Positions 28,407 through 54,378 are shown, counted from the first letter of the stretch. The stretch is 54,378 nt of DNA from a virus (IMGVR_UViG_3300014501_000023:1-54378), one strand, 5' to 3'. The notes: generated by a model from the letters alone, not told the origin. Numbers and translations are program-made.

Positions 28407-30695
28407 ATGAGGAGGCTGCTCCTCCCGCTTCTACTCTCAGCGTGCGCCGTTTTTTCGCCGCTGAGGGCGGCCGAGGTTGGCGGCTACAATAACGCCGGGC
28501 CGGCCACTCCCACAGACCGGATACTAGAGGACCAGGCCGGCGTCACGGTAAATGCCACGCCGCTGCAGCTGGCCACCTACACTTTCGGTTACGAAGCTAC
28601 GCGCGTCGTGACGGCCTCGGGCGCCGTGACCATGGCCGTGGCCGACTACAACGTCTGCGTCAACAAGGGCACGCCGGCTGCGACCACGGTCAACCTGCCG
28701 GCGAGCCCGACGACCGGGCAGGCGTACACCATAGGCGACTGCGCGGGCAATGCCGCGACCTATAACATCACGGTCACGCCAGCGGCCGGGAACATCGACG
28801 GCTCCTCGACCTTCCCGATTTCCAGCAACTGGGGCGTCTGGGACGGCTACTACGACGGCACACAGTGGAAGACCACCGCCTCGTACCCATCGAGCGGCAG
28901 CGGTCTCACCGCGCTGACCGGGGTGGTGAGCGCGAGCGGCACCGGAAGCGTCGCGACGACTCTCAACTGGACGCCGGGCTCTTATTACGACGTCGCGAAC
29001 CCGTCATACGCCGGGGGCGTGTACTGCGACGACTCGCACAACGATGCCCCAGCCGTCCAGGCAGCGTACGCCGCCGCTAGTGACGCCTCCATCGGCGGCG
29101 GCTATGCCTCGCTGATCTTTCCAGCCGGGAAAGAGTGCAAATTCTCGTGGGGAGTGGTCGAGACCAATATCGGCGTGCACTCGCTCGGCGGCGGCAACTA
29201 CTCGACGGTGATTGATCTTGAGCCGAGCATCAGCGTCTCCGGCGTGGCTATCGCCAGTACGGCCGGGGCGTTCACCACCAGCAGTTGCTCAGGCCTGACC
29301 GTCGGCAATCGGCTTAAGATTTCCGGCACGCTTGGTGGTTCTGGCTCAATCACTGGATACACGAATCCGAGCTATTACTATGTTTCTGCCGTGACCGGCA
29401 CGGCCTCTGCCTGCACCGGCTTCACGCTAAAGACGAACGCATCGCCCACGCCTGCCGCAATCGTCACGACTACCGGCACGCCAACCGGTCTGACTTACAC
29501 GGTCGTCGGCGTAGCGGCTTTCACGTTCGGCACGCTCGGCGCGGAGACCATCAACGATACCCTCGAGGGTATCGGGTTCATCAGCTTTGACAGCACCTAC
29601 ACCAAGATCGCGGTTGAAGCGTTGGACGTGGGTGGATTCCAACTGAAGGACATCTGCGTCGGCGTGGGCGGCGTGGCGTGGAGCGGCGGCCCAGCCATAC
29701 CGCCTGATACGCAGGCGGGCTCGATAGGCATACGAGCCTACGGGCGCGAGAATACGGACGTGGGCCCGGTAATCTGCAACCTCGCTGATAATCCCGAGGT
29801 CTGGTCGCCGAACCCGAACGATCCGAACGAAAACGAGGATCAGGACCACTGGCACTGGCACGACCAGCTCTTGACGCAATCCGGTACCAACGCCACCGGC
29901 TCCTGCCTAATTCGGATCGATCCCGGCGTCGGCTTAAGCAACACGACCGTCGACGGCCAGGAGGCGTGGGTCGCTGGTGATAATGGCGTCTGTAACAACG
30001 ATACGACGTCGACCGTTTCATCTTTTACGAGCACGTGGGGGCACGCGCGCTGGGAACAGGCGCCGGTGAGCACCGGGTACATGTTCTATTTCTCGTCTAA
30101 CAGCGAGTTCCAGGGCGCCCATATTTACGATGCCTACAACGGCTCGACGGCGAATGGCATTTACTGCCGCAAGTGCTACAGCTTGCAAGTGGACGGCTTC
30201 ACTGGTTCCGCAATGGGAGTCGCGTTTAATCTCGATAGCTCTGATTACGACGTTAATGCGCGCGGGATATGGCCGAACAGTGGCGCGACGAACACGGTCT
30301 CCGGTCAGACGCTGATAGAGGCCGACTACCTGTACGGGAATTCCAGCGTCCCGTATAACGCGACCTGGAGCAACAGCGCCCAGACGTACAACCGCACGGT
30401 CGGCGCCCAGTACTCCTTCTCCGGCAGCGCGCCCGCGGTCAGTGCTTGCGGGACGAGTCCTTCGATAGACTCCAACGCGACTAATGCGTCAGGCACCGTG
30501 ACGGTCGGCAGCGGCACCGACACGTCGTGCACGGTCACGTTCGCCGGCGGCGGCTACGCGACGTGGAACCACTGCCAGGTGAGCCCTGAGGCCGTTGACG
30601 CCGGTTTCGCCTACAGCTACACGAAGACGGTATTGACAGTCACTGCGACATCATTGACTTCTGAGAAGTTCGACTACAGCTGCAACGGTTTTTGA
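28407..30695 (+). CDS. tailspike/depolymerase-like protein (beta-helix) with signal peptide
   Basis: MRRLLLPLLLSACAVFSPLRA; fibre domain TVNLPASP..G....IGD..GNA...NITV; DV...G...D...D.PAVQAA...LIFPAG beta-helix entry; 16 Cys in mature chain. Confidence 0.7.
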   Translation: MRRLLLPLLLSACAVFSPLRAAEVGGYNNAGPATPTDRILEDQAGVTVNATPLQLATYTFGYEATRVVTASGAVTMAVADYNVCVNKGTPAATTVNLPASPTTGQAYTIGDCAGNAATYNITVTPAAGNIDGSSTFPISSNWGVWDGYYDGTQWKTTASYPSSGSGLTALTGVVSASGTGSVATTLNWTPGSYYDVANPSYAGGVYCDDSHNDAPAVQAAYAAASDASIGGGYASLIFPAGKECKFSWGVVETNIGVHSLGGGNYSTVIDLEPSISVSGVAIASTAGAFTTSSCSGLTVGNRLKISGTLGGSGSITGYTNPSYYYVSAVTGTASACTGFTLKTNASPTPAAIVTTTGTPTGLTYTVVGVAAFTFGTLGAETINDTLEGIGFISFDSTYTKIAVEALDVGGFQLKDICVGVGGVAWSGGPAIPPDTQAGSIGIRAYGRENTDVGPVICNLADNPEVWSPNPNDPNENEDQDHWHWHDQLLTQSGTNATGSCLIRIDPGVGLSNTTVDGQEAWVAGDNGVCNNDTTSTVSSFTSTWGHARWEQAPVSTGYMFYFSSNSEFQGAHIYDAYNGSTANGIYCRKCYSLQVDGFTGSAMGVAFNLDSSDYDVNARGIWPNSGATNTVSGQTLIEADYLYGNSSVPYNATWSNSAQTYNRTVGAQYSFSGSAPAVSACGTSPSIDSNATNASGTVTVGSGTDTSCTVTFAGGGYATWNHCQVSPEAVDAGFAYSYTKTVLTVTATSLTSEKFDYSCNGF

Positions 30696-30739
30696 TCCGA
30701 TGAAATCCGCGACAAGCGGCGCAGGTTTGAGGCAGTAAA

Positions 30740-33307: not shown

Positions 33308-33309
33308 AA

Positions 33310-33678
33310 GTGCAAGCCGACTGCCCCTTCAACGTATCGCTCGGGCTCAACAGCGCCGACCCGGTGTTTAATGAGGGTTCGACCTGCGTCGTGGCCGCGA
33401 GCTTCTTCGCCGCGTCGACCGGCGCCCCTTTCACGCCGACCTCGATCTTGTACCGGGTCGACGACATCAACTCCGGCGCCCCCATCGTGGCGTCCACGAG
33501 CGTGACGCCGGCCCCGAGCGTGAGCATCACGGTGACCGGGGCGCAGAACGCGCTGCTGTCCGCGCTGCGCTGCGTCGAGGAGCACCAGCTGACGGTCACA
33601 GTCGAGGACTCCTACGGCAACGTCGCAAACGTGCCGATCCGCTGGCTGGTCAAGCGCGTCTTCACATCAATCACATGA
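33310..33678 (+). CDS. Ig-like fibre attachment/adaptor protein (putative)
   Basis: GTG at 33310; FNEGS...F...G....P....YRVDD pattern; follows the repeat protein. Confidence 0.55.
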   Translation: MQADCPFNVSLGLNSADPVFNEGSTCVVAASFFAASTGAPFTPTSILYRVDDINSGAPIVASTSVTPAPSVSITVTGAQNALLSALRCVEEHQLTVTVEDSYGNVANVPIRWLVKRVFTSIT

Positions 33679-33688
33679 GCAGGCAAAA

Positions 33689-33934
33689 ATGGCTGAGCCC
33701 AGGAGAGTCAACGTCCGCGTCCACGAGGTCGCCGACGGCAGCAAGCACCTGGTGTTCGAGATCGCGGGCACCGGGGAGTGCGTCGGCGAGGTGCGGGTCG
33801 TGGCCTCCGACCCGGGCTACCTGCCGGTGATGGCGGCGCTGTTCACGCGGTGGGCGGGCGGTTCGCGCGCGCCCGGACCGCCTGAGCTGAGCATCGTCGC
33901 ATCAGTCAGGCAAGCCATCAACGGCAGTCACTGA
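33689..33934 (+). CDS. hypothetical protein
   Basis: 81-aa ORF in operon. Confidence 0.5.
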   Translation: MAEPRRVNVRVHEVADGSKHLVFEIAGTGECVGEVRVVASDPGYLPVMAALFTRWAGGSRAPGPPELSIVASVRQAINGSH

Positions 33935-33963
33935 AAGTCTTTTTTGAAGGAGCGGACAGAAAC

Positions 33964-34215
33964 ATGGCAAGCAAACGCACGGGGCGCAAATTCCTGAGCG
34001 ACAACGTGGTGAACGCGCGGCGCAACGCGACGCCCAGGCCGCAGCGCGTCACGATCATCACCGGCGGCATGAAGTACCGGCCCGGACAGCCGCCCGTGCC
34101 CGTGTACCCGGCGGGGGCTGCGCGCGTGCTGGGGCGCGGCGTGGTCGCCAGGTCGTCCCCGCTGCCGCCCGTGGTCAGCAGCCCGCCGGCAGACGCCCCG
34201 CTGCAGGCGGAGTGA
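33964..34215 (+). CDS. basic Pro-rich hypothetical protein
   Basis: 83-aa ORF with SD AAGGAG. Confidence 0.5.
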   Translation: MASKRTGRKFLSDNVVNARRNATPRPQRVTIITGGMKYRPGQPPVPVYPAGAARVLGRGVVARSSPLPPVVSSPPADAPLQAE

Positions 34216-34234
34216 AGGCTCACGGCCTCAAGCC

Positions 34235-35960: not shown

Positions 35961-35961
35961 A

Positions 35962-36378: not shown

Positions 36379-36413
36379 GTCTAAACATTTTCACTCTTTG
36401 AGGACATACTGAC

Positions 36414-37043
36414 ATGAAGATACTTCGTTCATTGATGTTGGCCGGTGCGCTGGCGGCGCTCGCTTGTGCGGCGGGTGCGCAGGTGCCCGGTGGGCTGTGG
36501 CGTTTCGGTACCACGGGCGCGTTTGCCCCGCAGCCCGGGGACTGCGTCAGCATTCTGGCGATGAATTCGAGCGGGCAGACGGGCACGGACTCGGCAACGC
36601 CATGTTCGCCCGCATTCCTCACTACTGCCTACACCAACGCGGCGCTCACAACCTACACCGCGGTCCTCGCCCTGCCGACCACTCAGGCTTCGACCGTGGT
36701 GGCCGGGGAGTGCGACTTAATCTGGGAGGACAGCTCGACCTCCGGCACCGCGACCTTCGCCGCCGGTCTCTCTGCGACGCCGACCGATCTCTGGGTCAAT
36801 GCTTCCTCGAGCGCTGGTGCGTACACGGCCCCCGCTTACACGACGATCGCAAACACCACGATCACCGCTGTCACTACTGCGCTGGCCGCTACCGCGGCGA
36901 CCACGCCCTACAGGACGCACCTGTCGTTCGTGCTGCAGAATTCCGCCATTGCGGCCAATATCTTGACTGTTTATGCACAATCAAATTCAGCGAGCTATAC
37001 ATTGACGGTCGAGCCCGGAAGCTGGTGCGCTTGGGTGCCGTAA
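36414..37043 (+). CDS. secreted beta-sandwich protein (possible virion accessory)
   Basis: MKILRSLMLAGALAALACAAGA-Q signal peptide; Thr/Ala-rich; 4 Cys in mature chain. Confidence 0.65.
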   Translation: MKILRSLMLAGALAALACAAGAQVPGGLWRFGTTGAFAPQPGDCVSILAMNSSGQTGTDSATPCSPAFLTTAYTNAALTTYTAVLALPTTQASTVVAGECDLIWEDSSTSGTATFAAGLSATPTDLWVNASSSAGAYTAPAYTTIANTTITAVTTALAATAATTPYRTHLSFVLQNSAIAANILTVYAQSNSASYTLTVEPGSWCAWVP

Positions 37044-37097
37044 GGCACGGGCGGCTCAAGGTCCTGGCTGCACTAACCATATAAGCGGAGCAATTCA

Positions 37098-38594: not shown

Positions 38595-38606
38595 GGAGGC
38601 CAAGCA

Positions 38607-39044: not shown

Positions 39045-39048
39045 GGGC

Positions 39049-39650: not shown

Positions 39651-39653
39651 GCC

Positions 39654-44548: not shown

Positions 44549-44550
44549 GC

Positions 44551-46041
44551 GTGGCTGCTCCCACGACCAACGTCCCGCCGATCACGTGGGTCAACGGCAT
44601 GCCGGTGGTGCCGACCGAGGCGGCGGTGCTGGCCGGGCGCGCGGCGGACTTCACCGCCGCCTACGGCAGCGCGCTCAACACCGCCCCCACCACCCCACAG
44701 GGGCAGGTGATCGCGAGCGACACGGCGATCATAGGCGACGCCAACGGGCAGATCGCCTACGCGGCCAGCATGGTGGACCCGGACCAGGCCGAAGGGGCGT
44801 GGCAGGATGCGATCGGTGCCATTTATTTCCTGACGCGCATAGCTGCCGCGGGCTCCGTGAAGACCGTGACCTGCATCGGCGGGGCCAATGTCATGATCCC
44901 GGCCGGCGCGTTGATCCAAGATCCCAGCGGCTACTCCTGGGCCGCCAACGGCCCCATTAACCTGGGTCCCACCGGGCAGACCGCTGGCACGTTCCAGTGC
45001 ACGACGCCGGGGCCGATCCCGTGGCCCGGGAACACGCCTTGCACGATCTTGACGCAGGTCAATAATTGGGACCAGGTGGTCAGCGCCAGCGCGGCCGCGC
45101 TCGGGAACCTGACCGAGGGGCGCGCGGCGTTTGAGAACCGGCGGCGCAATTCCGTAGCGATCAATTCGCAGGGTCAGACCGCGGCCATTTACGGCGCCGT
45201 GTTGGCGGTGCCCAACGTTCTGTCCGCCTACGTTGTCGACAACCCCACCAGCGCGACGGTTAACGTCGGGGCGACCGGTTACGCGGTGGTTCCGCACTCG
45301 GTGCTGGTGAGCGTTTACGGCGGGGTCGCAGCGGCCGTTGCGCAGGCGATTTGGAGCAAGAAGAGCGGGGGTTGTGGCTACAACGGCAACACGACCTACA
45401 CCGTTGCCGACACCTCCTACCCTGTCGGCTCGCAGCCTCAGTACCCGGTCACGTGGCTCACGCCGACGCCGACACCGATATACATAGCGGTCGCGCTGCA
45501 GAACAACGCGCTGCTGCCGCCCAATATAGCGGCGCTGATACAAGCGGCGGCGCTGGCGACCTTCACCGGCACCGATGCCGCGAGCTCTGTGCCGGCGGGC
45601 ATCGGGCTCACCATCTCAGGCTCGCGCTACGCGAGCCAGATGAACCTGATCAGCCCAGCGGTCAATATCGAGAGCATCATGGTGGGCCTGCAGACCGCAG
45701 TTCCCGGCGAGGTCGTGGGGACTGGCAACGGCTCGACCGTTACTTTTGCGCACACAGCCGCTCACCTGGCGGTGGTCCCGGGGGCCGTGGTTATCGCCGC
45801 CGGCGCGGTGATGGCGACCGACGATGGCAATGGCAATCTCGTGGGGACAGGCATCGCCGCGGGCTCCACTATCAACTACGCCACCGGTGCAATCAGCATC
45901 ACCTACAGCACAGCGCCCGCGAATGCCGTAGTGATAGCCATGAACTACAACTACGCCAATCCCGCCAGCGGCATCGTGACGATGGGCGTGGATCAGATGC
46001 CGACGCTGACGGCGCCGAGCGTCGTGGTGATGCTGGTGTGA
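44551..46041 (+). CDS. baseplate J-like protein with inserted C-terminal domain
   Basis: TPQGQ; DP..A.G.WQDAIG.IYF..R; E.RAAFE.RRR.SV..N; PHS..V.V.GG. Confidence 0.87.
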   Translation: MAAPTTNVPPITWVNGMPVVPTEAAVLAGRAADFTAAYGSALNTAPTTPQGQVIASDTAIIGDANGQIAYAASMVDPDQAEGAWQDAIGAIYFLTRIAAAGSVKTVTCIGGANVMIPAGALIQDPSGYSWAANGPINLGPTGQTAGTFQCTTPGPIPWPGNTPCTILTQVNNWDQVVSASAAALGNLTEGRAAFENRRRNSVAINSQGQTAAIYGAVLAVPNVLSAYVVDNPTSATVNVGATGYAVVPHSVLVSVYGGVAAAVAQAIWSKKSGGCGYNGNTTYTVADTSYPVGSQPQYPVTWLTPTPTPIYIAVALQNNALLPPNIAALIQAAALATFTGTDAASSVPAGIGLTISGSRYASQMNLISPAVNIESIMVGLQTAVPGEVVGTGNGSTVTFAHTAAHLAVVPGAVVIAAGAVMATDDGNGNLVGTGIAAGSTINYATGAISITYSTAPANAVVIAMNYNYANPASGIVTMGVDQMPTLTAPSVVVMLV

Positions 46042-46592
46042 AGAACTGGAGCCAAACGCTGATCAACCGGTTCGCGGGCACTCCGATCCTCGTCGCGCTG
46101 ATCTCTTCATTCGATGCGGCGGTGGACCCGGTGCCGAACCTTCAGGCGTTCCTCAAGTACATCTGGAACGTCAGGAGCGCGGTCGGCTACGGGCTGAATG
46201 TGTGGGGCACGATCGTCGGGGTATCGCGCGTGATCTCGACCCCCAGCGGCCCCATCACGCTGGACGACGCTGACTACCAGACGCTGATCCTGGTCAAGGC
46301 GGCCGCCAACATCGGCAACGTATCAGTGCAGGCGCTGAACCAGTTGCTGACGGCGCTCTTTGCCGGCTTCGGGGTGGTGTACGTTCAGGATAATCTGAAC
46401 ATGACGCTGACCTACGTGTTCCTCTTCCAGCCGACCGCCGCGCAATTGGCGATCATCCAGTACTCCGGGGTGATGCCGCGGCCGGCCGGGGTGCTGATCA
46501 CGGGGAACATATTTGAGAACGAGCTGGGGCCGCTCAACACAGTGCCGCTTAACTCCTGGCCGCTCAACCAGTTTGTCTTGAAAGGAATTTGA
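46038..46592 (+). CDS. DUF2612 family baseplate wedge protein
   Basis: GTG at 46038; IWNV.SA.GYGL.VWG.IVGVSR; L.D.DY..LI..KA.ANI; PRPAGV. Confidence 0.82.
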   Translation: MKNWSQTLINRFAGTPILVALISSFDAAVDPVPNLQAFLKYIWNVRSAVGYGLNVWGTIVGVSRVISTPSGPITLDDADYQTLILVKAAANIGNVSVQALNQLLTALFAGFGVVYVQDNLNMTLTYVFLFQPTAAQLAIIQYSGVMPRPAGVLITGNIFENELGPLNTVPLNSWPLNQFVLKGI

Positions 46593-46599
46593 AACCACA

Positions 46600-48063
46600 A
46601 TGCTGCGAAAACTGCTTCTAGGCTTGGCGCTGTGCCTCGGCGCGCTCAGCATTGATGGGCGCGCGAACGCTGCCACCGGCAGCGGCATTCAGCAATTCAG
46701 CAACAACGGCGTCACCACCCTCGTCGCTTCCGCGACCTCCTCCGCCACCACGATCACGGTGGCGTCGAACGCTACATTTCCGACGCTCAGCAGCGGTAAC
46801 TGGTTCATCGCGACCTTGGAGCACCTGACCGCGGGCCTCGTGACGGCGGACGAGATCATAAAGGTCACGGCCGATTCGAGCACTACGTGGACGGTGGTGC
46901 GGGCGCAGGAGGGCACGACGGGGTTGAGTTGGTCCTCGGGCGACACCGTGACGCTGCTGCCTACGGCCGGAGGACTGGCGCAGTTCGTGCAGCCAGCGCA
47001 GGCGCAGTCGCAGAGCTACAATTACGCGGCCGCGTCGGTCGGCGGTTCGAACAATTACTCGGTCACGCTGTCGCCGGCGCTCGTCACGCACGTGATCGGC
47101 ATGCCGATCACCTTCAAGGCTCCTGGCAGCGCCAACACTGGCAGCAGCACATTTAATGACGGCGCTGGGGTCGGGACCATTGTGCAGCCGTATGCCGCTG
47201 CGGCCCTTGCCGCCGGGGACATACCCGCGGGCGGCATGGTCACGGTCGTATGGGATGGGACCAACTTTCAGCTGACCAGCGTATCAGTCGCCATTGCGAA
47301 CGCTGTGCTGCTCAACCCGTATGGAGGCGCGGCGCAGACGATCACCGGCCCGATCATACTGGCCTCGACATTCCCCGAGCTTTTCTTCTCGACGACCGGA
47401 GCCCCTACCAACCAGGGCCTCTGGCTAGCGGCCACCACTAGCACCCAGTGGGCGCTGCAGGCCCTGAGCGATAACGAGAGCATTGTCAACAATGCGATCT
47501 TGGTGAACCGCGTCGGCGACGTGATCACCAGCGTCGCGCTAGCCGGCACATCGCAGACAGGGGCGACGCAGACTTCGAGCGACAACAGCGCGAATTTCGC
47601 GACCACCGCGTTCGTGAAGAACGTGCTGGCCGCTTCCCCAGCGCTCGGCGGCGTGCCGACCGCGCCCACCGCCTCACCCAGCAGCACCAGCACGACGCAG
47701 GTCGCATCGACCGCGTTTGTGCAATCCGCGATAGCCGCTGCGCTCGTGACCGGCACCGTTGGCACGAGCGGCTCGATAACCATCAACGTCGCCGGCGCCC
47801 CTCACGGGGCGGTCATCATCAAGTGGGGATTCGTGACGCCTGGGAACACGTATACGGGGAGCTCGACACAGCCGATCACTTTCCTAACTCCATTCCCGAA
47901 TGACATTTATTTTGCCGCCGCCTTCAGCAATCGCAACACCAAAAGCACATATGGATTCGGGAACATACCTTATGCGAATCTAGCGACTAATGGTTTTTTG
48001 GCTGTACTGGATGCCGATTCCAGCGGCAACATGAGCGGCGAGTGGATCGCGATAGGAGATTGA
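46600..48063 (+). CDS. tail fibre protein carrying an N-terminal signal peptide
   Basis: MLRKLLLGLALCLGALSIDGRANA; FSNN..TTL...EIIKVT...VVRAQEGT; PTAPT..TQVASTAFV; C-terminal IIKWG...ITF..PFPN...WIAIG. Confidence 0.8.
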   Translation: MLRKLLLGLALCLGALSIDGRANAATGSGIQQFSNNGVTTLVASATSSATTITVASNATFPTLSSGNWFIATLEHLTAGLVTADEIIKVTADSSTTWTVVRAQEGTTGLSWSSGDTVTLLPTAGGLAQFVQPAQAQSQSYNYAAASVGGSNNYSVTLSPALVTHVIGMPITFKAPGSANTGSSTFNDGAGVGTIVQPYAAAALAAGDIPAGGMVTVVWDGTNFQLTSVSVAIANAVLLNPYGGAAQTITGPIILASTFPELFFSTTGAPTNQGLWLAATTSTQWALQALSDNESIVNNAILVNRVGDVITSVALAGTSQTGATQTSSDNSANFATTAFVKNVLAASPALGGVPTAPTASPSSTSTTQVASTAFVQSAIAAALVTGTVGTSGSITINVAGAPHGAVIIKWGFVTPGNTYTGSSTQPITFLTPFPNDIYFAAAFSNRNTKSTYGFGNIPYANLATNGFLAVLDADSSGNMSGEWIAIGD

Positions 48064-48067
48064 GACA

Positions 48068-48331
48068 ATGTCCATACGTTCAACAGTCACCGCCGGTACC
48101 TGGCAGCAAGTCGGCACCGGGCCAGCGACCGTGCAGCTCATCTCCCCGGACGCCGACGAGGCCGAGGTCATGGTGGCGTGCGCCGCCTCGGCCCCCAGCA
48201 CCAACAGCGATGGCATGGTGCTGTATTCGCAGTACCCGGCGCACCTCTTCACGCTGACCGAGCCGATCTGGGCGCAGACGGTGCAAGCGGGGCTCACGGC
48301 CGAGGTGGCCGTGCAGCCGGAGGTCGCGTGA
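48068..48331 (+). CDS. small beta-rich virion accessory protein
   Basis: 87 aa, SD AGGAG, in fibre module. Confidence 0.55.
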   Translation: MSIRSTVTAGTWQQVGTGPATVQLISPDADEAEVMVACAASAPSTNSDGMVLYSQYPAHLFTLTEPIWAQTVQAGLTAEVAVQPEVA

Positions 48332-49695
48332 TCAGGCGACTGCTGCTAACGCTGTGCGCAGCGCTCCTTGGCGTCTACCACGTCACGGCGCGCGCGCAGG
48401 CGCCGGAGTACGTGTACTGCATCAACGCGACCAGCACCCAGTGCAATACGACCAGCAATCCAGGCAACGGCACCCAGGGGGATGATTCGTGGTTGGCCTT
48501 CGGCAAGCTCAACCTCGACCTCCTAGCGCTGCAACCGCCGACGCCGCAGTACTCGGTGGTCTATGCCAATGGTTCCAGCTATTCGGGACTTCTGCCCGGC
48601 GCGACCGGCACCTGGTGCCTGCAATGGAACAACCTCACCTCCGCCCCATCGCTGACGGCGTGCCCGGGCGCTGGGGCGTTGTCCTTCGCTTTGGTCTCCT
48701 CCGGCACCAACACCGCCACGCTGCACATCGGCACTGGCGGCTCGCTCAACGCCACCGGCAGCGGCGTGCTTGCCGCAACAACGGCCGCAGCGCTGGCCGC
48801 GACGCCGACGCAGTGCTCGGGCGGCACGCCCCTGGCGACCGGCGTCGCGGCGAACGGCAACGCTAATTGCACGGGCGCTGGCTCGAATGCTTGGAGCGCC
48901 GTCACGGCGGGCACCAATGCGCAGGCCCTTGTCATTGGCACCGGCGGCTCGCTGAGCACGTCGGGCACCGGCGCGATCGTCGCGACCTCGACCGTTGCGG
49001 GCGCGGTCACGCTGGCGATGATGGCGAACGAAACAGCCGACACGCTGCTGTGCAATAACACTGGCTCGGCTGCGGCGCCGATCGCTTGCACCGTCGCGCA
49101 AGTACTCACGCTGCTGACCTCAACATCCGGCGGCGGCACGACGAACTACCTGCGCGCCGATGGCACATGGGCCGCGCCCCCTGGCGGCGGCGGCTCGCCC
49201 GCCTTCAGCGCCGTGACCGCCGGCATCAATGCCAATGCGCTGGTCATGGGCACCGGCGGATCTCTGAGCGTCTCAGGCACCGGCTCGATCGCCGCGACCA
49301 CCGCAGCGGCGCTGGCCGCGACGCCGACGCAGTGCTCGGGCGGCACGCCCCTGGCGACCGGCGTCGCGGCGAACGGCAATGCGAACTGCACCGCTGCGGG
49401 CGCTCAGACGATTGCTGCCGGGGCCACTGCGCTGCCAACCGCTGCCGTGTCAGCGAACAGTTGCAGCGCGAGCGCCACAACGGCGACCGCGACCGGGGTG
49501 GCTACCACTGATGCAATGGAGGTAGCCTACGCTTCTGATCCCACGGGGGTTACGGGTTACGGCGGCGGGACGAACGGCGGTATAACGATCAGGCCCTGGC
49601 TCACCACAAATACTTTCAACGTCAAGCTGTGCAACGAAACCGCGAGCTCCATCACCCCAGGGGCGCTAAGCGTTAATTGGAGAGTGGCGCGGTGA
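48328..49695 (+). CDS. fibre protein with signal peptide and internal repeats
   Basis: GTG at 48328; MIRRLLLTLCAALLGVYHVTARA-Q; PGNGTQGD....AFGKLN; NYLRADGTWAAP; 12 Cys in local pairs. Confidence 0.72.
   Translation: MIRRLLLTLCAALLGVYHVTARAQAPEYVYCINATSTQCNTTSNPGNGTQGDDSWLAFGKLNLDLLALQPPTPQYSVVYANGSSYSGLLPGATGTWCLQWNNLTSAPSLTACPGAGALSFALVSSGTNTATLHIGTGGSLNATGSGVLAATTAAALAATPTQCSGGTPLATGVAANGNANCTGAGSNAWSAVTAGTNAQALVIGTGGSLSTSGTGAIVATSTVAGAVTLAMMANETADTLLCNNTGSAAAPIACTVAQVLTLLTSTSGGGTTNYLRADGTWAAPPGGGGSPAFSAVTAGINANALVMGTGGSLSVSGTGSIAATTAAALAATPTQCSGGTPLATGVAANGNANCTAAGAQTIAAGATALPTAAVSANSCSASATTATATGVATTDAMEVAYASDPTGVTGYGGGTNGGITIRPWLTTNTFNVKLCNETASSITPGALSVNWRVAR
48790..49379 (+). repeat. 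71-bp perfect direct repeat (48790-48860 and 49309-49379)
   Basis: identical GCGCTGGCCGCGACGCCG...GCGAACGGCAA encoding ALAATPTQCSGGTPLATGVAANG. Confidence 0.85.
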
Positions 49696-51632
49696 GACGT
49701 TGGCTATCGCCGCTGCTGCTCCTCTGGTGCGGGCTCACATGCGCGCAGAGCCTGCCGATGGGCGGTATCCCAAGCGGCAGCTGCATCCCCACGGTCGTGC
49801 AGAAGGTCACCGGCGGCGGCCTAAGCGCTGGCGCCCTGTCAGTCTCAGCGACGATTACAGGTGTTGTAGCGGGCGACGCGCTCTTCGTCCCGCTGGCACA
49901 TTCGGATACCAGCGGCACTAATCCGACGATCACAGTCTCAGACGCCCAGGGCGCGTACACTGGCGACGCCGTGGTACAGCGCGGCAACCAGATCGACGTC
50001 GGCATCTACACTCTTTTCAACGCGAACGCTGGTTCGCACACGATCACGGCCACCGCGAGCAGTGGCACGGTGGGAGCCAGTTCCTACGCGATCGAGGTGC
50101 TCGAGGGTAATTGCTTAGGTAGTACCGACTCGCTCGATCAGAAGTCAACACTCAGCGCGAACACCAGCGCGACGCCCACCACCGGCACCACCGCGGCGCT
50201 GGCGCAGGGTAGCGAGTTCGTCGTGACGGCGATGTCCGGCAACATGGACAACCTGACCGGGGGCACGTTCCCGCCGACCGGCGGCAATAACTCGCCGTTC
50301 ATTTCGATCTTCTCCAACGCCGCCGGCACGCCTTACCAGGCTATCGACTCCGATTACCAGATCAATACGACCGCCACCACCGGCGTCGCGGCGGCGTATG
50401 GCACGATGAGCAACAGCCAGATCTGGGGCGCGGTGATCGCTACCTACAAGGCCTCGGCCTCTGGAGGCGGAGGCGGCGGGGGCGGCGGGGGCGGCGGCAC
50501 CGGAGTCAAGTGGCACCCCGGGCACTACTGCCTGAGCAATCAGGTCGTATCGTCCTCCAACTGGGGTACCTCCGAGGGGCTCGTCGAGGGCGAGATCAAC
50601 TCATGCCTCTCGCAGGCCAATGTGCAGGGTTACTTGATGATCCTGTACTGGAACGCGATCGAGAATGCGACGCTGGGCTCCTACAGCTGGACCTACATCG
50701 ACACGATCCGCACGTACATCCAGACCAACTACCCGGGCAAGCGCTTCGCGGTGATGATCTGGTCTGAGGCCTTCGGCGGTAGCAACCCGGCGAGCAACCT
50801 GCCGAGCTACATCACGACCGGCTCGGGGTACGGTGCCGGGAGCAATGGCACGCAGTACGGTTACTGGGCCTTCGCGGGCGCCGGCTACACGGCCGCCTGG
50901 TGGCGCTCGGTGGTGATGGCGAGGGTGGAGGCGCTGTTCGCGGCGTTCGCTGCTCATACGTCCCCTTACACCGGCGGCGTCTGCTCATCGGGGTGCACAT
51001 ACGACACGGACCCGTATTTCGAGGCGGTGACGTGGCAGGAGTCCACCATGTCGCTGGCCTCGACGCCGGGCGACTACAGCTTCAGTGCGGCACAGACGCA
51101 GTACCAGAACCTGATCGCTGACATGGTGAGCTACTTCCCGCACACCAACGTCATCGACCAGAACAACTTCCTCGGCTACACCGGCGGCAGCATCAACACG
51201 ACCGGCAACACGACCGTGACCGATGCTGGCGTGAGCGCCGCGATCGGCGGCTCCGACACCTCTTACCCGCTCAGCAACCTGAGCTGGGGCCAGCTGGCCT
51301 TCATGGGCTACGCGAACTGCGGCGGCTGCGGCCTGACCTCTGGCTTCGTGAGTCTCTACGGCACTGCGGCCTCGCTCGCGTTCGTCGAGACGCCGGACTA
51401 CACGTACACGCTCGCGCACCTCAACCAGGCTTCAATGAACACACCGACCGCCTCCCCAGGCGGCATGGGTGCCTCTGAAGTTTACTGGGGCATCGAAAGT
51501 ACTGGCAGCGGTAACGCTGGCGATTGGGCGACCGAGGTGCTGCCGAACATCAACGCCACGCCGATCCCTACGGGGAACAAGACGTGTCCGAGCAAGTACA
51601 CGAGCCTGCGCGGCGGCTGCAACACGACGTGA
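49692..51632 (+). CDS. secreted protein: beta-sandwich, Gly12 linker, putative clan GH-A TIM-barrel glycoside hydrolase
   Basis: MRRWLSPLLLLWCGLTCA-Q; KWHPGHY, W..IE....G.Y.W..ID, LPSYI, D.DP.FE......ES. Confidence 0.6.
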   Translation: MRRWLSPLLLLWCGLTCAQSLPMGGIPSGSCIPTVVQKVTGGGLSAGALSVSATITGVVAGDALFVPLAHSDTSGTNPTITVSDAQGAYTGDAVVQRGNQIDVGIYTLFNANAGSHTITATASSGTVGASSYAIEVLEGNCLGSTDSLDQKSTLSANTSATPTTGTTAALAQGSEFVVTAMSGNMDNLTGGTFPPTGGNNSPFISIFSNAAGTPYQAIDSDYQINTTATTGVAAAYGTMSNSQIWGAVIATYKASASGGGGGGGGGGGGTGVKWHPGHYCLSNQVVSSSNWGTSEGLVEGEINSCLSQANVQGYLMILYWNAIENATLGSYSWTYIDTIRTYIQTNYPGKRFAVMIWSEAFGGSNPASNLPSYITTGSGYGAGSNGTQYGYWAFAGAGYTAAWWRSVVMARVEALFAAFAAHTSPYTGGVCSSGCTYDTDPYFEAVTWQESTMSLASTPGDYSFSAAQTQYQNLIADMVSYFPHTNVIDQNNFLGYTGGSINTTGNTTVTDAGVSAAIGGSDTSYPLSNLSWGQLAFMGYANCGGCGLTSGFVSLYGTAASLAFVETPDYTYTLAHLNQASMNTPTASPGGMGASEVYWGIESTGSGNAGDWATEVLPNINATPIPTGNKTCPSKYTSLRGGCNTT

Positions 51633-51635
51633 CTT

Positions 51636-52205
51636 ATGCCTCTTGACATCACCGACGACGACGTCTACGCGGGCCTCACCGGCTTCTTGCAACTGGTCGT
51701 GCCGCAGGCCCCTTGGACTTACGCTGGCACGACGTATCCGGCCGTCCCCATTTTGCGCGGGCAGCAGAATCGGGTGCCGATGCCGTCCATCCCCTTCGTG
51801 CTGATGACCACGCTCGGTGCGCCGCGCCGTGTTGGCACCAACGCGGACAGCACCGAGGCCGTGATCGTTGACAGCGTGCTGATCGGGTTCACGGCCGCAG
51901 CCAGAGCGGACTTTGAGTACGCGGTGCAGGCCGACTTCTACTCCCCGCTGGCCGAAGCGTGGTCGATGGCGGTGGAGCTGCTGTGGCGCGACACCATAGG
52001 GATCGCAGCGATGCCGCCCGGCATGAAACCATTGTACTCGGAGGACCGGCGGCAGCTGCCGCTGATCGGCGGGGAGGATCAGTGGGTGCAGCGCTGGACG
52101 ATGACGCTGTACCTGGATTACCAGCCGACGTGGACACAGCCGACCGAGGCGGCCACGGCAATCACGGTCATACCGGAACCGATAGACGTGTTTTATCCCC
52201 CATGA
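51636..52205 (+). CDS. tail terminator/completion protein, displaced from neck module
   Basis: L..FL...V.....I.RGQ.NRVP.P...FV.MT; Q.DFY; L.RD; PLY....Q.P.I.GE.Q...RW...L.L.Y.P. Confidence 0.75.
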   Translation: MPLDITDDDVYAGLTGFLQLVVPQAPWTYAGTTYPAVPILRGQQNRVPMPSIPFVLMTTLGAPRRVGTNADSTEAVIVDSVLIGFTAAARADFEYAVQADFYSPLAEAWSMAVELLWRDTIGIAAMPPGMKPLYSEDRRQLPLIGGEDQWVQRWTMTLYLDYQPTWTQPTEAATAITVIPEPIDVFYPP

Positions 52206-52216
52206 GAGGTTTTGAA

Positions 52217-52951
52217 ATGAAGAAGATAATCCCGGTACTCGCGCTCGCAAGCCTGCTGTGCGCATGCTCGGTATTAGCGCCAAAGCCAACCGCGCGTGCC
52301 AAGTTTGGCGCAGTCGCGGCTACTCCATCGCCTAACGGCGCGAAGCTCGTGGGACCCACGGCGGCCGGCTCGCTGATAGATGCAACCGGCAACACCTGGA
52401 CGCTCACGGGCGGACAGCTCTCAGAGAACGGCGGCGCACCGACCGGCCTTAACATCATCCTGACCGAATACTGCGGTGGCCTGATCTATCAGGAGAACGC
52501 GAGCACCCTGTGGTGGGATTCGGTCAGCGGCGCGTGGGTCGCGACCACAGCGCCTGCTACGTGCGGGGCGATTATCGCCGCCGGTGGCAATGCGAACCTG
52601 AGCTGGACGCCGCCGACCACTGACGTGAAGGGGGGTCTGCTTGCGAGCACTCCTGGGGACGCGCTGACCGGTTTCAACATATACCAAGGCGTCGGCGCCG
52701 GCTCACTCGTCAAAATCGCGTCGGTGGCGGCCAACGTGCTCAACTACACCGTGAGCGGCCTGACCGTCGGCTCGTACACGTTCGCGGTCACAGCCACCAA
52801 CGCGGCCGGCGAGAGCGCGGACAGCCCGAGCCAGACCGCGAGCGTCGAGCCGGTGGTGCCGGCGGCTGCGGCGCCCGGCCCCGTGCTGACTTTCACCGTA
52901 GCGTGTTCGGGGCAGAATGGCGTCACGACCTGCACGGTGACGGTCCCGTGA
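52217..52951 (+). CDS. lipoprotein with FN3 domain
   Basis: MKKIIPVLALASLLCA-C; LSWTPP...GFNIY.G...YTV.GL..G.Y.FAVTA.N..GES..S. Confidence 0.75.
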   Translation: MKKIIPVLALASLLCACSVLAPKPTARAKFGAVAATPSPNGAKLVGPTAAGSLIDATGNTWTLTGGQLSENGGAPTGLNIILTEYCGGLIYQENASTLWWDSVSGAWVATTAPATCGAIIAAGGNANLSWTPPTTDVKGGLLASTPGDALTGFNIYQGVGAGSLVKIASVAANVLNYTVSGLTVGSYTFAVTATNAAGESADSPSQTASVEPVVPAAAAPGPVLTFTVACSGQNGVTTCTVTVP

Positions 52952-54378
52952 GAGCAATCAGGCTCGCGCTGCTCGCGCTTTTATTTGCCGGCGCTGCGCA
53001 GGCGCAGACCTACGTCGCTGGCGTCACGGTAGGCGCCGTGAGCGGCTCGAACGTAGTGCAAGTCACGCCCACGCCTTCGACGCTCGTGATGCAATGCCTG
53101 CCGGCGTGGCAGCGGGAGTGCTGGCCTGGTACTAGCGGCATCGGCCCCTCTGCCGCTCTCGGTTCACTGGCTGGTTCCGCTTATGTGTGGGCGCTGCTAC
53201 CGCCATCGACGAGCGCGAAGTGGGTCACGGTGGCGGCGATCACCGCGTCTGCGCCTGGTCCGACGCCAGCGCCCACCGTCGCGCTCTCGGCGCAAACCAC
53301 GTTGAATTGGTCGTCCACAGGCACTACCGGCGCGGCGCCTTGCTCGGGCGTCGGAACAGCGGCGAGCGGCTCGCTGAGCGTGTCACCTACTCTCACGACC
53401 ACGTACACGCAGACGTGCAAGGGAGCGGGCGGCACGGCGAGCGCATCGGTCACGGTGGCCGGCGTGATGCCGGTAACGCCGCCGCCTCCACCACCTCCAC
53501 CGCCTCCACCGCCGCCTCCACCGCCGCCTCCACCACCACCGATCACAAACAACTGCGGCATGCAGCTCGGCGGTCCGGCGGCTTTTTGCTTCACGTTCGA
53601 TACGCCGATGGTGGTGGCCGGCACGCGCACTGGCGCGCTCGACCCGAACGTCTGGGGCGTGTCACGCACGATTGGCGATAGTGGGCTGAACCTTGGGCAG
53701 AGCGAGTACAACCAATGGAACGCCACGACGATACAGAACTGCACCGGCACGGCAACGGTCACGCCGCCCAACGACATTGCGATCTGCAACGGCCAGCTGC
53801 GTGAAGCGGTCAACGACAATAATAATTCTGCCTTTGAGAACGGCGATGTGACCTCGCTCGCGATGTACCCCAAGCAGCCGTTCGACTTCGCTGGACGCAC
53901 TGGCACCGTGAGCTTCGACGTGTCGAACGATTCGCAGGGATCGCACTCGGTGTGGCCGGAATTCTGGATGTCTGATCAGCCCGTGCCCGATCCGTTCACC
54001 CACGAGGCGACGTGGCAGGCGATGCCGACCAATGGGTTTGGCGTGCGCATGGGCAACGCGGCGCCACCAGGGCAGCAGGGCCAATGCCAGAACGGCAACA
54101 ACCTGGCGAAGTTTCGCTGGAACGTGGACTCTGCGATAGTCGTGCGCAATCACGTTGAGGAAGACACGAACGGGTACGGCACGCCAACCGGCCTGACCGT
54201 GACGAACCTCGACTGCGTGATCTCGTCCAGCGGCCCCGGAAACATGAATCATGTGGAGCTGCGCATCTCGACCAACGAGATCGACGTGTACGCGACGGAC
54301 GCAGGCGTGGCGGCGGCGCTGAGCACGCTGCGTGAGATCACGAAGATCACAGGCGCGAATCTGCCTTTCACTCGCGGC
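52948..54378 (+). CDS. secreted protein with Pro21 linker and putative ConA/LamG-like domain (3' truncated by window; absent from ORF track)
   Basis: hand translation MRAIRLALLALLFAGAAQA-Q...; open to window end; YPKQPFDFAGRTGTVSFDVSND...WPEFW...MNHVELRIS. Confidence 0.75.
   Translation, partial: MRAIRLALLALLFAGAAQAQTYVAGVTVGAVSGSNVVQVTPTPSTLVMQCLPAWQRECWPGTSGIGPSAALGSLAGSAYVWALLPPSTSAKWVTVAAITASAPGPTPAPTVALSAQTTLNWSSTGTTGAAPCSGVGTAASGSLSVSPTLTTTYTQTCKGAGGTASASVTVAGVMPVTPPPPPPPPPPPPPPPPPPPPPITNNCGMQLGGPAAFCFTFDTPMVVAGTRTGALDPNVWGVSRTIGDSGLNLGQSEYNQWNATTIQNCTGTATVTPPNDIAICNGQLREAVNDNNNSAFENGDVTSLAMYPKQPFDFAGRTGTVSFDVSNDSQGSHSVWPEFWMSDQPVPDPFTHEATWQAMPTNGFGVRMGNAAPPGQQGQCQNGNNLAKFRWNVDSAIVVRNHVEEDTNGYGTPTGLTVTNLDCVISSSGPGNMNHVELRISTNEIDVYATDAGVAAALSTLREITKITGANLPFTRG
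53479..53541 (+). repeat. CCN microsatellite-like tract encoding 21 consecutive prolines
   Basis: ccgccgcctccaccacctcca... read directly. Confidence 0.9.

What the first reader, a model, noticed from the sequence alone, without database searches (positions are those of the whole stretch)
28407..54378. Adsorption apparatus apparently exported through Sec: tail fibre, tailspike and accessory fibres all carry signal peptides
Seen: seven late genes start with a basic N-region, a hydrophobic core and an AxA- or lipobox-type site. They are 28407 (tailspike-like), 36414, 46600 (tail fibre in the canonical slot after baseplate J and DUF2612, with typical fibre motifs), 48328 (fibre), 49692 (GH-like), 52217 (FN3 lipoprotein) and 52948 (lectin-like); 18672 in the head region is an eighth. 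Mature chains have even, locally paired Cys counts by hand count (16, 4, 0, 12, 10, 4, at least 10, and 4), whereas sheath, capsid and tape measure have 3, 2 and 0. No downstream Met could skip the 46600 leader. Established: tailed-phage fibres normally fold and attach in the cytoplasm, and disulfides form in the periplasm via DsbA. Inference: this phage exports its receptor-binding proteins, folds them oxidatively and attaches them at or after lysis. This could also hide them from cytoplasmic defences that sense or modify tail proteins, or give superinfection exclusion. The Cys-free 46600 fibre shows disulfides are not the whole explanation.
Basis: partly seen in the sequence, partly recalled or inferred. 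Interest (0 to 1): 0.88.

Follow-up and report, generated by a model that had tools for sequence, protein, structure and literature searches.

The report
Phage tail fibres carrying export signals
An uncultured contractile-tailed phage puts ordinary bacterial secretion signals on its baseplate tail fibre and on neighbouring sugar-binding and sugar-cutting proteins, which suggests these parts fold outside the cytoplasm and meet the virus particle only at lysis, a route not described for tailed phages.

Summary
Eight late proteins start with a basic stretch, a 9-14-residue uncharged core and a small-x-small or lipobox site. Five of them are among the 7 genes after DUF2612.

The strongest case is the fibre at 46600. 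Of 51 full-length relatives of its N-domain, 39 start 1-10 residues before the FSNN motif. Twelve carry a 20-30-residue leader in front of the same motif, and ten of those form one supported clade. The motif is predicted to form the socket for the DUF2612 protein's C-terminal tail.

The set is mixed:
- a true fibre (46600);
- a fibre-like protein with a tailspike-type tip (48328);
- a relative of pectate-lyase-type tailspikes (28407);
- a GH42-like enzyme (49692);
- a lectin-fold protein that also occurs in bacterial genomes (52948);
- an atypical lipoprotein (52217);
- two small orphans (18672, 36414).

Export is very likely. Re-attachment of exported fibres to virions is inferred, not shown. 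I had no trained signal-peptide predictor, and five literature searches found no report of such a route.

This scan has noted the same theme before on other DNA, mostly short-tailed phages. What this window adds is a myovirus with a clean comparison of fibres with and without the leader.

The parts
18672..19046 (+). 124-aa orphan protein with a signal-peptide-like N-terminus (leader about 18672-18737) and 4 Cys in the mature part. It lies between the portal and MuF genes.
   Evidence: No Pfam, PHROG or NCBIfam family.
28407..30695 (+). 762-aa protein with a leader (about 28407-28469) and 16 Cys in the mature part. It is a relative of pectate-lyase-type beta-helix tailspikes or depolymerases, with small Cys-bearing domains at residues about 57-160 and 665-762.
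   Evidence: 3275 relatives at E <= 0.001; 93 of the best 150 pass my leader rule. 10 of 30 relatives scanned match PF12708, but the protein itself matches no Pfam family. ESM Atlas feature hits of 0.86-0.89 are leads only.
36414..37043 (+). 209-aa orphan protein with a leader (about 36414-36479) and 4 Cys in the mature part, directly upstream of the sheath gene.
   Evidence: No family. No relative found in viral contigs.
44551..46592 (+). Baseplate J-like gene (44551-46041) and DUF2612 wedge gene (46038-46592). Both are leaderless. This is the docking platform for the fibre.
   Evidence: Pfam PF04865 and PF11041. The DUF2612 profile matches solved baseplate wedge proteins 7kh1 gp17 (E 1.6e-16) and 7yfz Pam3 gp23.
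46600..48063 (+). Canonical baseplate tail fibre, 487 aa, with a 24-residue leader (46600-46671) added in front of the conserved FSNN N-domain. The mature part has no Cys. The C-terminus is Gp53-like.
   Evidence: PHROG tail-fibre profiles align from residue about 32 to profile position about 5. PF21882. PDB 8jov 'putative tail fiber protein': residues 32-142 match chain residues 5-112. No alternative start. Family comparison. Docking model.
48068..48331 (+). 87-aa leaderless protein between the fibre and 48328. It is conserved only in L002 (64% identity). Role unknown.
48328..49695 (+). 455-aa fibre-like protein with a leader (about 48328-48396) and 12 Cys in the mature part. It has a conserved Cys-bearing N-domain, internal repeats and a 96-residue C-terminal beta-sandwich tip (49405-49692) with two conserved Cys.
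   Evidence: 133 relatives; 86 of the best 120 pass the leader rule. The tip is shared by 76-78 of them. AlphaFold2 pLDDT 93.3. 9 BFVD matches at E <= 0.001 to phage tailspike or fibre C-termini; no PDB match at that level.
49692..51632 (+). 646-aa protein with a leader (49692-49745): an N-terminal beta domain, a poly-Gly linker and a GH42-like TIM-barrel domain (residues about 265-646). 10 Cys in the mature part.
   Evidence: ESM Atlas: feature score 0.96, and structure TM 0.76 to clusters where 15-42% of members carry PF02449. No Pfam hit on the protein itself. An ATG at codon 23 is used by another gene call and would skip the leader.
51636..52205 (+). 189-aa leaderless 'neck terminator'-family protein sitting among the leader-bearing genes.
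   Evidence: PF23961 (E 8.4e-17), phrog_1876, NF047498.
52217..52951 (+). 244-aa putative lipoprotein (leader 52217-52264, Cys17) with a weak FN3-like stretch.
   Evidence: The fn3 hit has E 4.9e-4 and 20.7 bits, below Pfam's 25-bit cut-off. The L-C-A-C lipobox is atypical.
52948..54378 (+). Protein cut off by the end of the record (477 aa seen): leader (about 52948-53004), an Ig-like part, a run of about 24 prolines, then a legume-lectin/ConA-like plus CBM-like domain. At least 10 Cys.
   Evidence: 1124 relatives at 60-71% identity, some in bacterial genomes. 12 viral contigs. Model of a relative has pLDDT 67; PDB fold matches to ERGIC-53 and legume lectin domains have target TM-scores (TMt) of about 0.5, E about 1e-4.

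Best explanation
The eight N-termini are working Sec signals, with one atypical lipoprotein signal. They sit on a late-operon set of glycan-binding and glycan-cutting proteins.

Proposed mechanism:
1. The proteins are made late, together with the baseplate.
2. They are threaded unfolded through SecYEG and cut by signal peptidase on the periplasmic side.
3. They fold there. Disulfides form in the Cys-rich members.
4. They stay apart from the DNA-filled, fibreless particles until the holin opens the inner membrane.
5. The fibre 46600, now carrying a native-like N-terminus a few residues before FSNN, docks as a trimer onto the C-terminal tail of the DUF2612 wedge protein.
6. The fibre-like 48328 and tailspike-like 28407 may join particles in the same way.
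7. The GH42-like enzyme (49692) and the lectin-fold protein (52948) more likely act as free, oxidatively folded enzymes or lectins on the host's surface polysaccharide.

Shown: the leaders, their conservation, the family comparisons and the predicted docking.
Inferred: export, cleavage, disulfides and the time and place of attachment.
For: 1. Leaders with signal-peptide proportions on 8 late proteins; 5 of the 7 genes after DUF2612.

2. Comparison within the fibre N-domain family:
- 35 homologues have the FSNN-type motif 1-10 residues after Met1 (median 4). 12 have it after a 20-30-residue leader. 5 of the 52 lacked my motif pattern (one truncated, four leaderless by eye).
- In a tree of 47 rows, 10 of the 12 leader-bearing fibres fall in one clade with support 97/86. 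The label needs 4 changes, against 10.7 in shuffles; 0 of 500 shuffles were as low.
- Leaders keep a +2 or +3 charge and a 10-20-residue uncharged run while sharing a median of only 38% identity, against 65% in the mature domain.
- All 12 have a small-x-small site 3-6 residues before the motif.

3. No start codon can skip the leader of 46600.

4. Docking model, DUF2612 protein with three copies of fibre residues 25-160:
- Score 0.84, best of 3 controls 0.44. That mark was reached by 58 of 80 solved complexes and 2 of 110 mismatched pairs.
- The runs agree in at least 76% of contacts. The partner's pLDDT is at least 56.
- The interface is DUF2612 residues 161-181 with fibre residues 33-38 (FSNNGV) of all three copies.
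- My own alignments and a multi-copy set-up were used, unlike the calibration. Like complexes seem to be solved (7kh1, 8jov), so the pass may reflect likeness.

5. In the 48328 family, 86 of 120 carry leaders. These are Cys-rich (p = 5e-9) and 43 of the 86 have Gln at +1. In the 28407 family, 93 of 150 carry leaders and 34 of the 93 have Gln at +1.

6. The genes are translationally coupled, with 4-base overlaps or gaps of 3-11 bases. Promoter-like and terminator-like sites are not above shuffled expectation.

7. Feasibility: Bdellovibrio MAT fibres are phage-like trimeric fibres with signal peptides and disulfides. A full-length one formed fibres when made with a PelB leader (PMC10769870, passages read).
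Against: - No trained predictor (SignalP, DeepTMHMM) was on hand. My rule gave one false positive in this window (the DUF2612 gene) and two in the fibre family (P0156, P0159).
- No experiment or virion proteome exists for this phage or for any relative. None of 28407, 48328, 49692 or 52948 has a relative among 50,697 deposited phage records.
- The mature 46600 fibre has no Cys, and Cys content does not differ clearly in its family (p = 0.065). Oxidative folding therefore cannot explain its leader.
- Leaderless fibres nest next to or inside the leader clade (P0127, P0130, P0132). In L005 and L007 the first fibre is leaderless while later genes carry leaders. The trait is thus dispensable for the fibre.
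- 52948 and 49692 look like ordinary secreted bacterial-type proteins.
- No holin, endolysin or spanin was found in the record, which ends inside a gene. The lysis step of the model therefore rests on general knowledge.
- The small-x-small rule is permissive in Ala/Gly/Ser-rich sequence.
Confidence: 0.45

Rival explanations
1. The proteins are exported but are not parts of the particle. They form an envelope-acting accessory set made late: enzymes and lectins that cut or mask the host's own surface glycans. This would free progeny, stop progeny from sticking to debris, or exclude superinfecting phages. On this reading the exported 46600 fibre acts as a receptor blocker. Particles would get their fibres from precursor that escapes export, or would use other adhesins such as the leaderless repeat protein at 30740.
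For: - 49692 is GH42-like.
- 52948 has a lectin fold and belongs to a family found in bacterial genomes, where full-length members carry signal or lipoprotein leaders.
- 52217 is a putative lipoprotein.
- 36414 and 18672 are small orphans with no fibre features.
- L005 and L007 keep a leaderless first fibre and add leader-bearing genes after it.
- Exported phage proteins that act on the envelope are a known kind: T4 Spackle, T5 Llp, lambda Bor and Lom. These are recalled, not from a call.
Against: - 46600 is the only fibre in the canonical slot.
- Its N-domain, including the FSNN socket predicted to hold the DUF2612 tail, stays conserved in the leader-bearing clade (median 65% identity). A pure decoy would not need that.
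- No internal start gives a leaderless copy.
- There are no own promoters or terminators, and the base composition matches the rest of the genome.
- The 48328 and 28407 families are mostly on viral contigs and have tailspike or fibre architecture.
Confidence: 0.3
2. The leaders do not lead to export and cleavage. They work in or at the cytoplasmic face of the inner membrane. For example, they could be uncleaved tethers that gather fibres at a membrane assembly site, timers that delay fibre attachment, or propeptides removed by a phage protease.
For: - Fast-folding trimeric fibres are poor Sec substrates in general (established knowledge, not tested here).
- The Cys-free 46600 fibre has no obvious need for the periplasm.
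- Its c-region holds Asp and Arg.
Against: - Cores of 9-14 residues are too short for stable membrane anchors.
- Small-x-small sites are kept 3-6 residues before the motif in 12 of 12 leader-bearing fibres.
- Gln at +1 occurs in 43 of 86 and 34 of 93 relatives of 48328 and 28407. Leaders and Cys-richness go together, which fits cleavage and periplasmic folding.
Confidence: 0.12
3. Artefact: wrong start codons, or chance hydrophobic N-termini in a GC-rich (Ala/Leu-rich) genome.
For: - Four of the eight genes use GTG or weakly preceded starts.
- 49692 has an ATG at codon 23, which another gene call used.
- My rule has false positives.
Against: - For 46600 no other start exists.
- Leaders recur in relatives with different sequences.
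- They are enriched in one gene block (p = 0.0016) and against control phages (5 of 7 against 4 of 68, p = 0.00014).
Confidence: 0.03

Closest known systems
Leaderless baseplate fibres of DUF2612-type myoviruses (PHROG 8469; PDB 8jov 'putative tail fiber protein'; the tail fibre of MW202796)
   Same: Same N-terminal domain with the FSNN-type motif. Same gene slot after baseplate J and DUF2612. Gp53-like C-terminus. Predicted docking on the DUF2612 wedge protein.
   Different: Those fibres begin 1-10 residues before the motif. This one, and 11 of the 51 full-length relatives examined, carry a 20-30-residue signal-peptide-like leader in front of it.
Bdellovibrio bacteriovorus MAT (mosaic adhesive trimer) fibres (Caulton et al. 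2024, PMC10769870; passages read)
   Same: Phage-fibre-like trimeric proteins with a signal peptide, a conserved domain right after it, variable tips and disulfides. They are made outside the cytoplasm. 48328 has the same layout: leader, conserved Cys-bearing N-domain, fibre, tip.
   Different: MATs are chromosomal genes of a predator and sit on its own surface. Here the genes are in a phage late operon, and one of them is the phage's own baseplate fibre. I did not test for or find sequence homology to the MAT N-domain.
Signal peptides on genes of Porphyromonas gingivalis phages (Matrishin et al. 2023, PMC10367356; passages read)
   Same: Phage genes with Sec signal peptides, some exposing Gln at +1 (the 'Q rule'). 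The authors read them as use of the host's secretion system. Gln at +1 is also common here.
   Different: The passages I read name capsid, spanin and unknown genes, with no occurrence of 'tail fiber' in the text. The hosts are Bacteroidota.
Exported phage proteins that act on the envelope (T4 Spackle, T5 Llp, lambda Bor and Lom, SAR endolysins); recalled, from no call
   Same: Phage-encoded proteins with Sec or lipoprotein signals, made during infection and acting in the periplasm or outer membrane.
   Different: Those are small non-structural proteins. None is a homologue of a baseplate fibre or tailspike.
Filamentous phage coat proteins pIII and pVIII; recalled, from no call
   Same: Virion proteins, including the receptor-binding one, that carry signal peptides and join the particle at the envelope.
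   Different: A different virus realm. Assembly is by extrusion through the envelope without lysis. No tailed phage is known to do this.

Membership tests
Sec (signal peptidase I) signal peptides | Positively charged n-region, uncharged h-region of about 7-15 residues, and small residues at -3 and -1 | tested here: met
   Seven proteins: n-regions hold 1-3 Lys/Arg, cores are 9-14 residues, and sites are A/V/T-x-A. This is my own rule, not a trained predictor.
Sec (signal peptidase I) signal peptides | High score from a trained predictor (SignalP 6, DeepTMHMM) | not testable with these tools
   No such predictor is on hand.
Sec (signal peptidase I) signal peptides | Export and cleavage in cells | not testable with these tools
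   Needs PhoA fusions or N-terminal proteomics.
Bacterial lipoprotein signal (52217) | Lipobox L-[AS]-[GA]-C after a short hydrophobic core | tested here: inconclusive
   The box reads L-C-A-C, with Cys at -2, which is atypical.
Myovirus baseplate tail fibre (PHROG 8469 / 8jov-type N-domain) | Homologous N-domain, gene directly after baseplate J and DUF2612 | tested here: met
   phrog_8469 E 3.1e-18; 8jov E 7.9e-13; gene order.
Myovirus baseplate tail fibre (PHROG 8469 / 8jov-type N-domain) | Docks on the wedge protein | tested here: met
   Model score 0.84 against a best control of 0.44. The mark was reached by 58 of 80 solved complexes and 2 of 110 mismatched pairs. Contacts agree in at least 76%; partner pLDDT at least 56. 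The pass may reflect likeness to solved baseplates.
Myovirus baseplate tail fibre (PHROG 8469 / 8jov-type N-domain) | Protein starts at the N-domain (cytoplasmic, no leader) | tested here: not met
   24 extra residues precede it, as in 11 of the 51 full-length relatives examined.
Pectate-lyase-type tailspike or depolymerase (PF12708), for 28407 | Match to the family profile | tested here: inconclusive
   The protein itself has 0 Pfam families. 10 of 30 relatives scanned match PF12708, best E 3.6e-16.
Glycoside hydrolase family 42 (49692) | Family profile match and catalytic Glu pair | tested here: inconclusive
   No Pfam hit. ESM Atlas feature score 0.96 and TM 0.76 to clusters in which 15-42% of members carry PF02449. 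Catalytic residues not examined.
Morons (independently transcribed prophage cargo) | Own promoter and terminator; deviating base composition | tested here: not met
   Consensus sites are at or below shuffled expectation. The genes overlap or lie 3-11 bases apart. GC is 0.62-0.67, like the rest. The consensus scans are crude.
Type IX secretion cargo (N-terminal leader plus C-terminal sorting domain), considered for the 48328 tip | Match to the T9SS C-terminal domain models | tested here: not met
   No NCBIfam or Pfam match. The fold matches phage tailspike or fibre C-termini instead.
Bdellovibrio MAT fibres | Conserved beta-rich N-domain of about 130 residues after the leader; display on the cell's own surface | not tested
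   No MAT sequence was compared. Only the layout is alike.

The most novel reading that the evidence does not exclude
This myovirus, and a clade of relatives, assembles in two compartments.
- Heads and tails with baseplates are built in the cytoplasm.
- The only baseplate fibre, plus a tailspike-like and a fibre-like protein, is sent through Sec.
- Signal peptidase trims the fibre to the native N-terminus that forms the socket for the DUF2612 wedge tail.
- The fibre can therefore be fitted only when the holin breaches the inner membrane.

On this reading, infectivity is switched on at lysis, and the exported parts gain disulfides that cytoplasmic phage proteins cannot have.
Probability: 0.3. 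Interest if true: 0.9.

Novelty: new variant of a known kind. Interest (0 to 1): 0.62.

Why it matters
Textbook assembly of tailed phages takes place wholly in the cytoplasm. If baseplate fibres and tailspikes are routinely exported, a whole class of uncultured phages uses a second compartment and the host's Sec and Dsb machinery to finish its particles. The related families hold thousands of protein clusters.

That would change several things:
- how receptor-binding proteins are predicted and expressed: they would need periplasmic expression;
- how host range is engineered;
- which host functions (SecA, signal peptidase, DsbA) count as phage dependencies or defence targets.

Even the modest reading is a useful annotation rule for metagenomic phages: late-operon secreted glycan enzymes and lectins, folded oxidatively.

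The fibre family here offers a direct test. Its close homologues occur with and without the leader, so the two forms can be compared.

Tried and rejected
- Near-identical DNA among deposited phages: none. The sheath's best relatives reach only 38-41% identity, so no cultured stand-in exists.
- tblastn of 28407, 48328, 49692 and 52948 against deposited phages: no match. The low-complexity filter was on.
- Sequence searches of PDB with 28407, 48328, 49692 and 52948, and with a profile of the 52948 family: nothing meaningful.
- Pattern scans of viral contigs for 36414 and 28407: no relative.
- T9SS-type C-terminal sorting domain for the 48328 tip: rejected.
- A conserved small leaderless partner gene upstream of tip-domain proteins: rejected. 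Only L002 shares 48068.
- Moron status: not supported.
- The metagenome scan for the fibre gave only short contigs and leaderless relatives. A 71.8-kb contig listed for P0123 could not be fetched.
- The host could not be fixed. Named carriers of the 48328 tip are three Acidobacteriota MAGs and one Oryzomonas MAG. The best-named relatives of 52948 are Steroidobacteraceae MAGs. These are leads only.
- Literature: five full-text searches returned no paper describing Sec export of tail fibres or tailspikes of a tailed phage. I read passages of PMC12210884, PMC5936750, PMC3556154 and PMC12923769, and they were not relevant. All other papers were seen as search listings only.
- My first crude gene caller, which tried every start (14 of 73 flagged), over-called leaders and mis-called some genes. 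I replaced it with annotated starts.
- The leader count for tip-domain carriers (28 of 30) used a lenient rule, taking the best of up to 40 starts. It is an upper bound.

Full report
**What the window is.** The 54,378-base window is a whole IMG/VR virus record. It is classed linear, with a CheckV completeness estimate of 100. GC is 0.61-0.69 throughout.

It encodes a tailed phage with:
- terminase, portal, MuF, and a NUDIX-DUF2213 protease/scaffold;
- a major capsid protein;
- a DUF3383 sheath, an E217 gp32-like tube, and a tape measure with a lysozyme domain;
- baseplate J and DUF2612.

The early genes lie on the minus strand: ThyX, DUF2130 and a primase-helicase. No deposited phage is close. 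There is no megablast match, and the sheath reaches at most 41% identity to Burkholderia, Pantoea, Aeromonas, Xanthomonas and Acinetobacter phages.

The last gene runs off the end of the record, and I found no holin, endolysin or spanin. The record is therefore probably not quite complete.

**The observation.** Each has 1-3 Lys/Arg near the start, an uncharged core of 9-14 residues and a small-x-small site. For 52217 the site is an atypical L-C-A-C lipobox.

With my own rule, which is not a trained predictor, 9 of 46 late plus-strand genes are flagged at their annotated starts. These are the eight plus the DUF2612 gene. I count the DUF2612 hit as a false positive.
- Five of the seven genes after DUF2612 are flagged, against four of the other 39 (p = 0.0016).
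- Two phages with leaderless fibres gave 4 of 68. These were two spanins, an acyltransferase and a hypothetical, none of them a tail gene.

Among proteins of 200 residues or more, the seven leader-bearing ones are richer in Cys than the 14 others (p = 0.012). Over all sizes the difference is not significant (p = 0.21).

The genes overlap by four bases or lie 3-11 bases apart. Promoter-like and terminator-like sites are not above shuffled expectation. They are therefore ordinary members of the late operon.

**The fibre at 46600 is the key case.**
- Its C-terminus matches Gp53-like_C.
- Tail-fibre PHROGs align from residue about 32 to profile position about 5.
- A solved 'putative tail fiber protein' (8jov) aligns its residues 5-112 to residues 32-142 here.
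- The annotated fibre of MW202796 begins a few residues before the same motif.

The first 24-28 residues are thus an addition. No ATG or GTG lies between codons 6 and 53, and the only TTG is at codon 9. The leader is therefore always translated.

A search with residues 1-160 found 52 proteins.
- In 35 of them the FSNN-type motif lies 1-10 residues after Met1.
- In 12 it lies after a 20-30-residue leader.
- Five did not fit my motif pattern: one is truncated and four are leaderless by eye.

In a maximum-likelihood tree of the 47 rows with the motif, ten leader-bearing fibres form one clade (support 97/86). One leaderless member is nested inside it, and two further leader-bearing fibres stand apart. 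The label needs four changes, against 10.7 for shuffled labels.

Within that clade the leaders share a median of 38% identity, against 65% for the next 120 residues. All of them keep a +2 or +3 charge and a 10-20-residue uncharged run. All 12 have a small-x-small site 3-6 residues before the motif. That would leave a mature N-terminus like that of the leaderless homologues, although this rule is permissive in such sequence.

**Does the fibre dock on the baseplate?** A complex model of the DUF2612 protein with three copies of fibre residues 25-160 scored 0.84, against a best control of 0.44.
- That mark was reached by 58 of 80 solved complexes and 2 of 110 mismatched pairs.
- The runs agree in at least 76% of contacts.
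- The partner's pLDDT is at least 56.
- The counts hold only roughly, because my own alignments and three copies were used.

In the model, the C-terminal tail of the DUF2612 protein (residues 161-181) lies against residues 33-38 of all three fibre copies, that is, the FSNN motif itself. Relatives of both proteins are in solved baseplates (7kh1, 7yfz, 8jov). The pass may therefore show likeness rather than independent evidence.

Taken with the conservation of the N-domain in the leader-bearing clade, this says that these fibres are still built to sit on a baseplate, with the docking site a few residues from the predicted cleavage site.

**The other leader-bearing proteins are a mixed set.**

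48328 has 133 relatives. Of the best 120, 86 pass my leader rule. Those are Cys-rich (median 1.94% against 0.35%, p = 5e-9), and 43 of the 86 have Gln at +1.
- What most relatives share is the last 96 residues.
- That domain folds with confidence (pLDDT 93.3) as a beta-sandwich.
- It has nine matches at E <= 0.001 among predicted viral structures, including the C-termini of pectate-lyase-type proteins. Weaker matches go to a tailspike and a tail fibre. No PDB match reaches that level.
- It occurs in 27 viral contigs and four MAG contigs: three Acidobacteriota and one Oryzomonas.
- 28 of 30 carriers have a leader by a lenient rule. They often sit in runs of three to five leader-bearing, Cys-rich genes.
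- One such contig is an SU10-like short-tailed phage.

28407 has 3275 relatives at E <= 0.001. Of the best 150, 93 pass the leader rule. Ten of 30 relatives scanned match the pectate-lyase-like family PF12708, though the protein itself matches no Pfam family.

49692 ends in a GH42-like barrel by ESM Atlas features (0.96) and structure (TM 0.76).

52948 has a lectin-fold domain. It belongs to a family of more than 1100 proteins at 60-71% identity. That family occurs in bacterial genomes and in 12 viral contigs. In one of these (L047) it is followed by a 28407 homologue.

52217, 36414 and 18672 remain unassigned.

**Reading.** Export of these proteins is, in my judgement, about 85% likely. It rests on four things:
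- the shape of the leaders;
- the way they are conserved;
- their link with Cys-rich mature chains;
- the frequent Gln at +1.

What happens next is inferred. For 46600 the simplest account is that the cleaved fibre meets fibreless particles when the inner membrane is opened at lysis. The enzymes and lectins may stay free.

The main rival is that none of the exported proteins is a virion part, and that particles use unexported precursor or other adhesins. The conserved docking domain and the lack of an internal start argue against this for 46600. It may well hold for 49692, 52948 and 52217.

Leaderless fibres lie next to and inside the leader clade. The first fibres of L005 and L007 are also leaderless. 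Both forms are thus viable, which makes the family a ready test bed.

**What is known.** Five full-text searches found no description of Sec-exported fibres in tailed phages.

The nearest in print, from the passages I read:
- Bdellovibrio MAT fibres, which are cell-surface, signal-peptide-bearing, phage-like trimers (PMC10769870);
- signal peptides on genes of Porphyromonas phages, with no tail parts named (PMC10367356).

Both leads came from earlier notes of this scan. Those notes have recorded the same theme in other genomes, mostly short-tailed phages, and later checks priced the bold reading at 6-30 in 100. I did not re-test those genomes.

What this window adds is a contractile-tailed phage in which the leader sits on a fibre with solved leaderless relatives and a predicted docking site.

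**Limits.**
- No trained signal-peptide predictor was available.
- There is no virion proteome and no known host.
- All leader counts rest on my own rule, whose false positives are noted above.

Noticed in passing
window 30740-33307 (+): A leaderless 855-aa protein. After an N-terminal domain of about 230 residues it consists of some 27 tandem repeats of about 19-20 residues (Ala/Ser/Gly/Val-rich with a recurring I-T/A-E-G/S-x-D core). It matches phrog_38872 (unknown function, E 6.7e-27). It could be a fibre or whisker that needs no export.
   Followed up: partly
window 51636-52205 (+): A 'neck terminator' family gene (PF23961, NF047498, phrog_1876) sits among the leader-bearing genes after the fibre, far from the neck genes upstream of the sheath.
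   Followed up: partly
window 54378 (end) and the whole record: The last gene is cut by the end of the record, and no holin, endolysin or spanin genes were seen. The CheckV estimate of 100% completeness is probably too high. In the relative PE067 the lysis cassette follows the fibre gene.
   Followed up: partly
window 7004-7297 (-) and 9629-10246 (-): Two early-region genes with lipoprotein-type N-termini. The first has a classic L-A-G-C box at its annotated start. The second has an internal start giving an A-L-A-A-C box. They may be spanin or exclusion lipoproteins. Neither has a Pfam family.
   Followed up: no
window 19382-19717 (+): A 111-aa protein with two long hydrophobic segments (a membrane protein, holin-like in shape), between the portal and MuF genes and next to the leader-bearing 18672.
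   Followed up: no
relatives of 48328 and 28407 (P0001-P0120, P0173-P0322): Gln is the commonest residue at +1 of the predicted cleavage site: 43 of 86 and 34 of 93. In the window, an A-x-A-Gln reading is possible for 36414, 48328, 49692 and 52948. This recalls the 'Q rule' described for Bacteroidota, yet the named carriers here are Acidobacteriota and Proteobacteria MAGs.
   Followed up: partly
window 49692-51632 and 52948-54378: Homopolymer linkers: a run of 12 Gly in 49692 and a run of about 24 Pro in 52948, each between an N-terminal beta domain and the enzyme-like or lectin-like domain.
   Followed up: no
L036 3389-5332 and 9662-19943: In an SU10-like short-tailed phage contig, the 647-aa gene right after the adaptor and four consecutive downstream genes (up to 2123 aa with 32 Cys) all carry leaders. 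This links the window to the podovirus cases noted earlier by the scan.
   Followed up: partly
window 27259-27972 (+): A NUMOD3-motif protein (homing-endonuclease-like) lies between the capsid block and the 28080-33678 appendage genes.
   Followed up: no
L008 5028-6743: In a 114-kb viral contig, a 572-aa leader-bearing gene is inserted inside the baseplate block, between the gp25-like gene and baseplate J.
   Followed up: no
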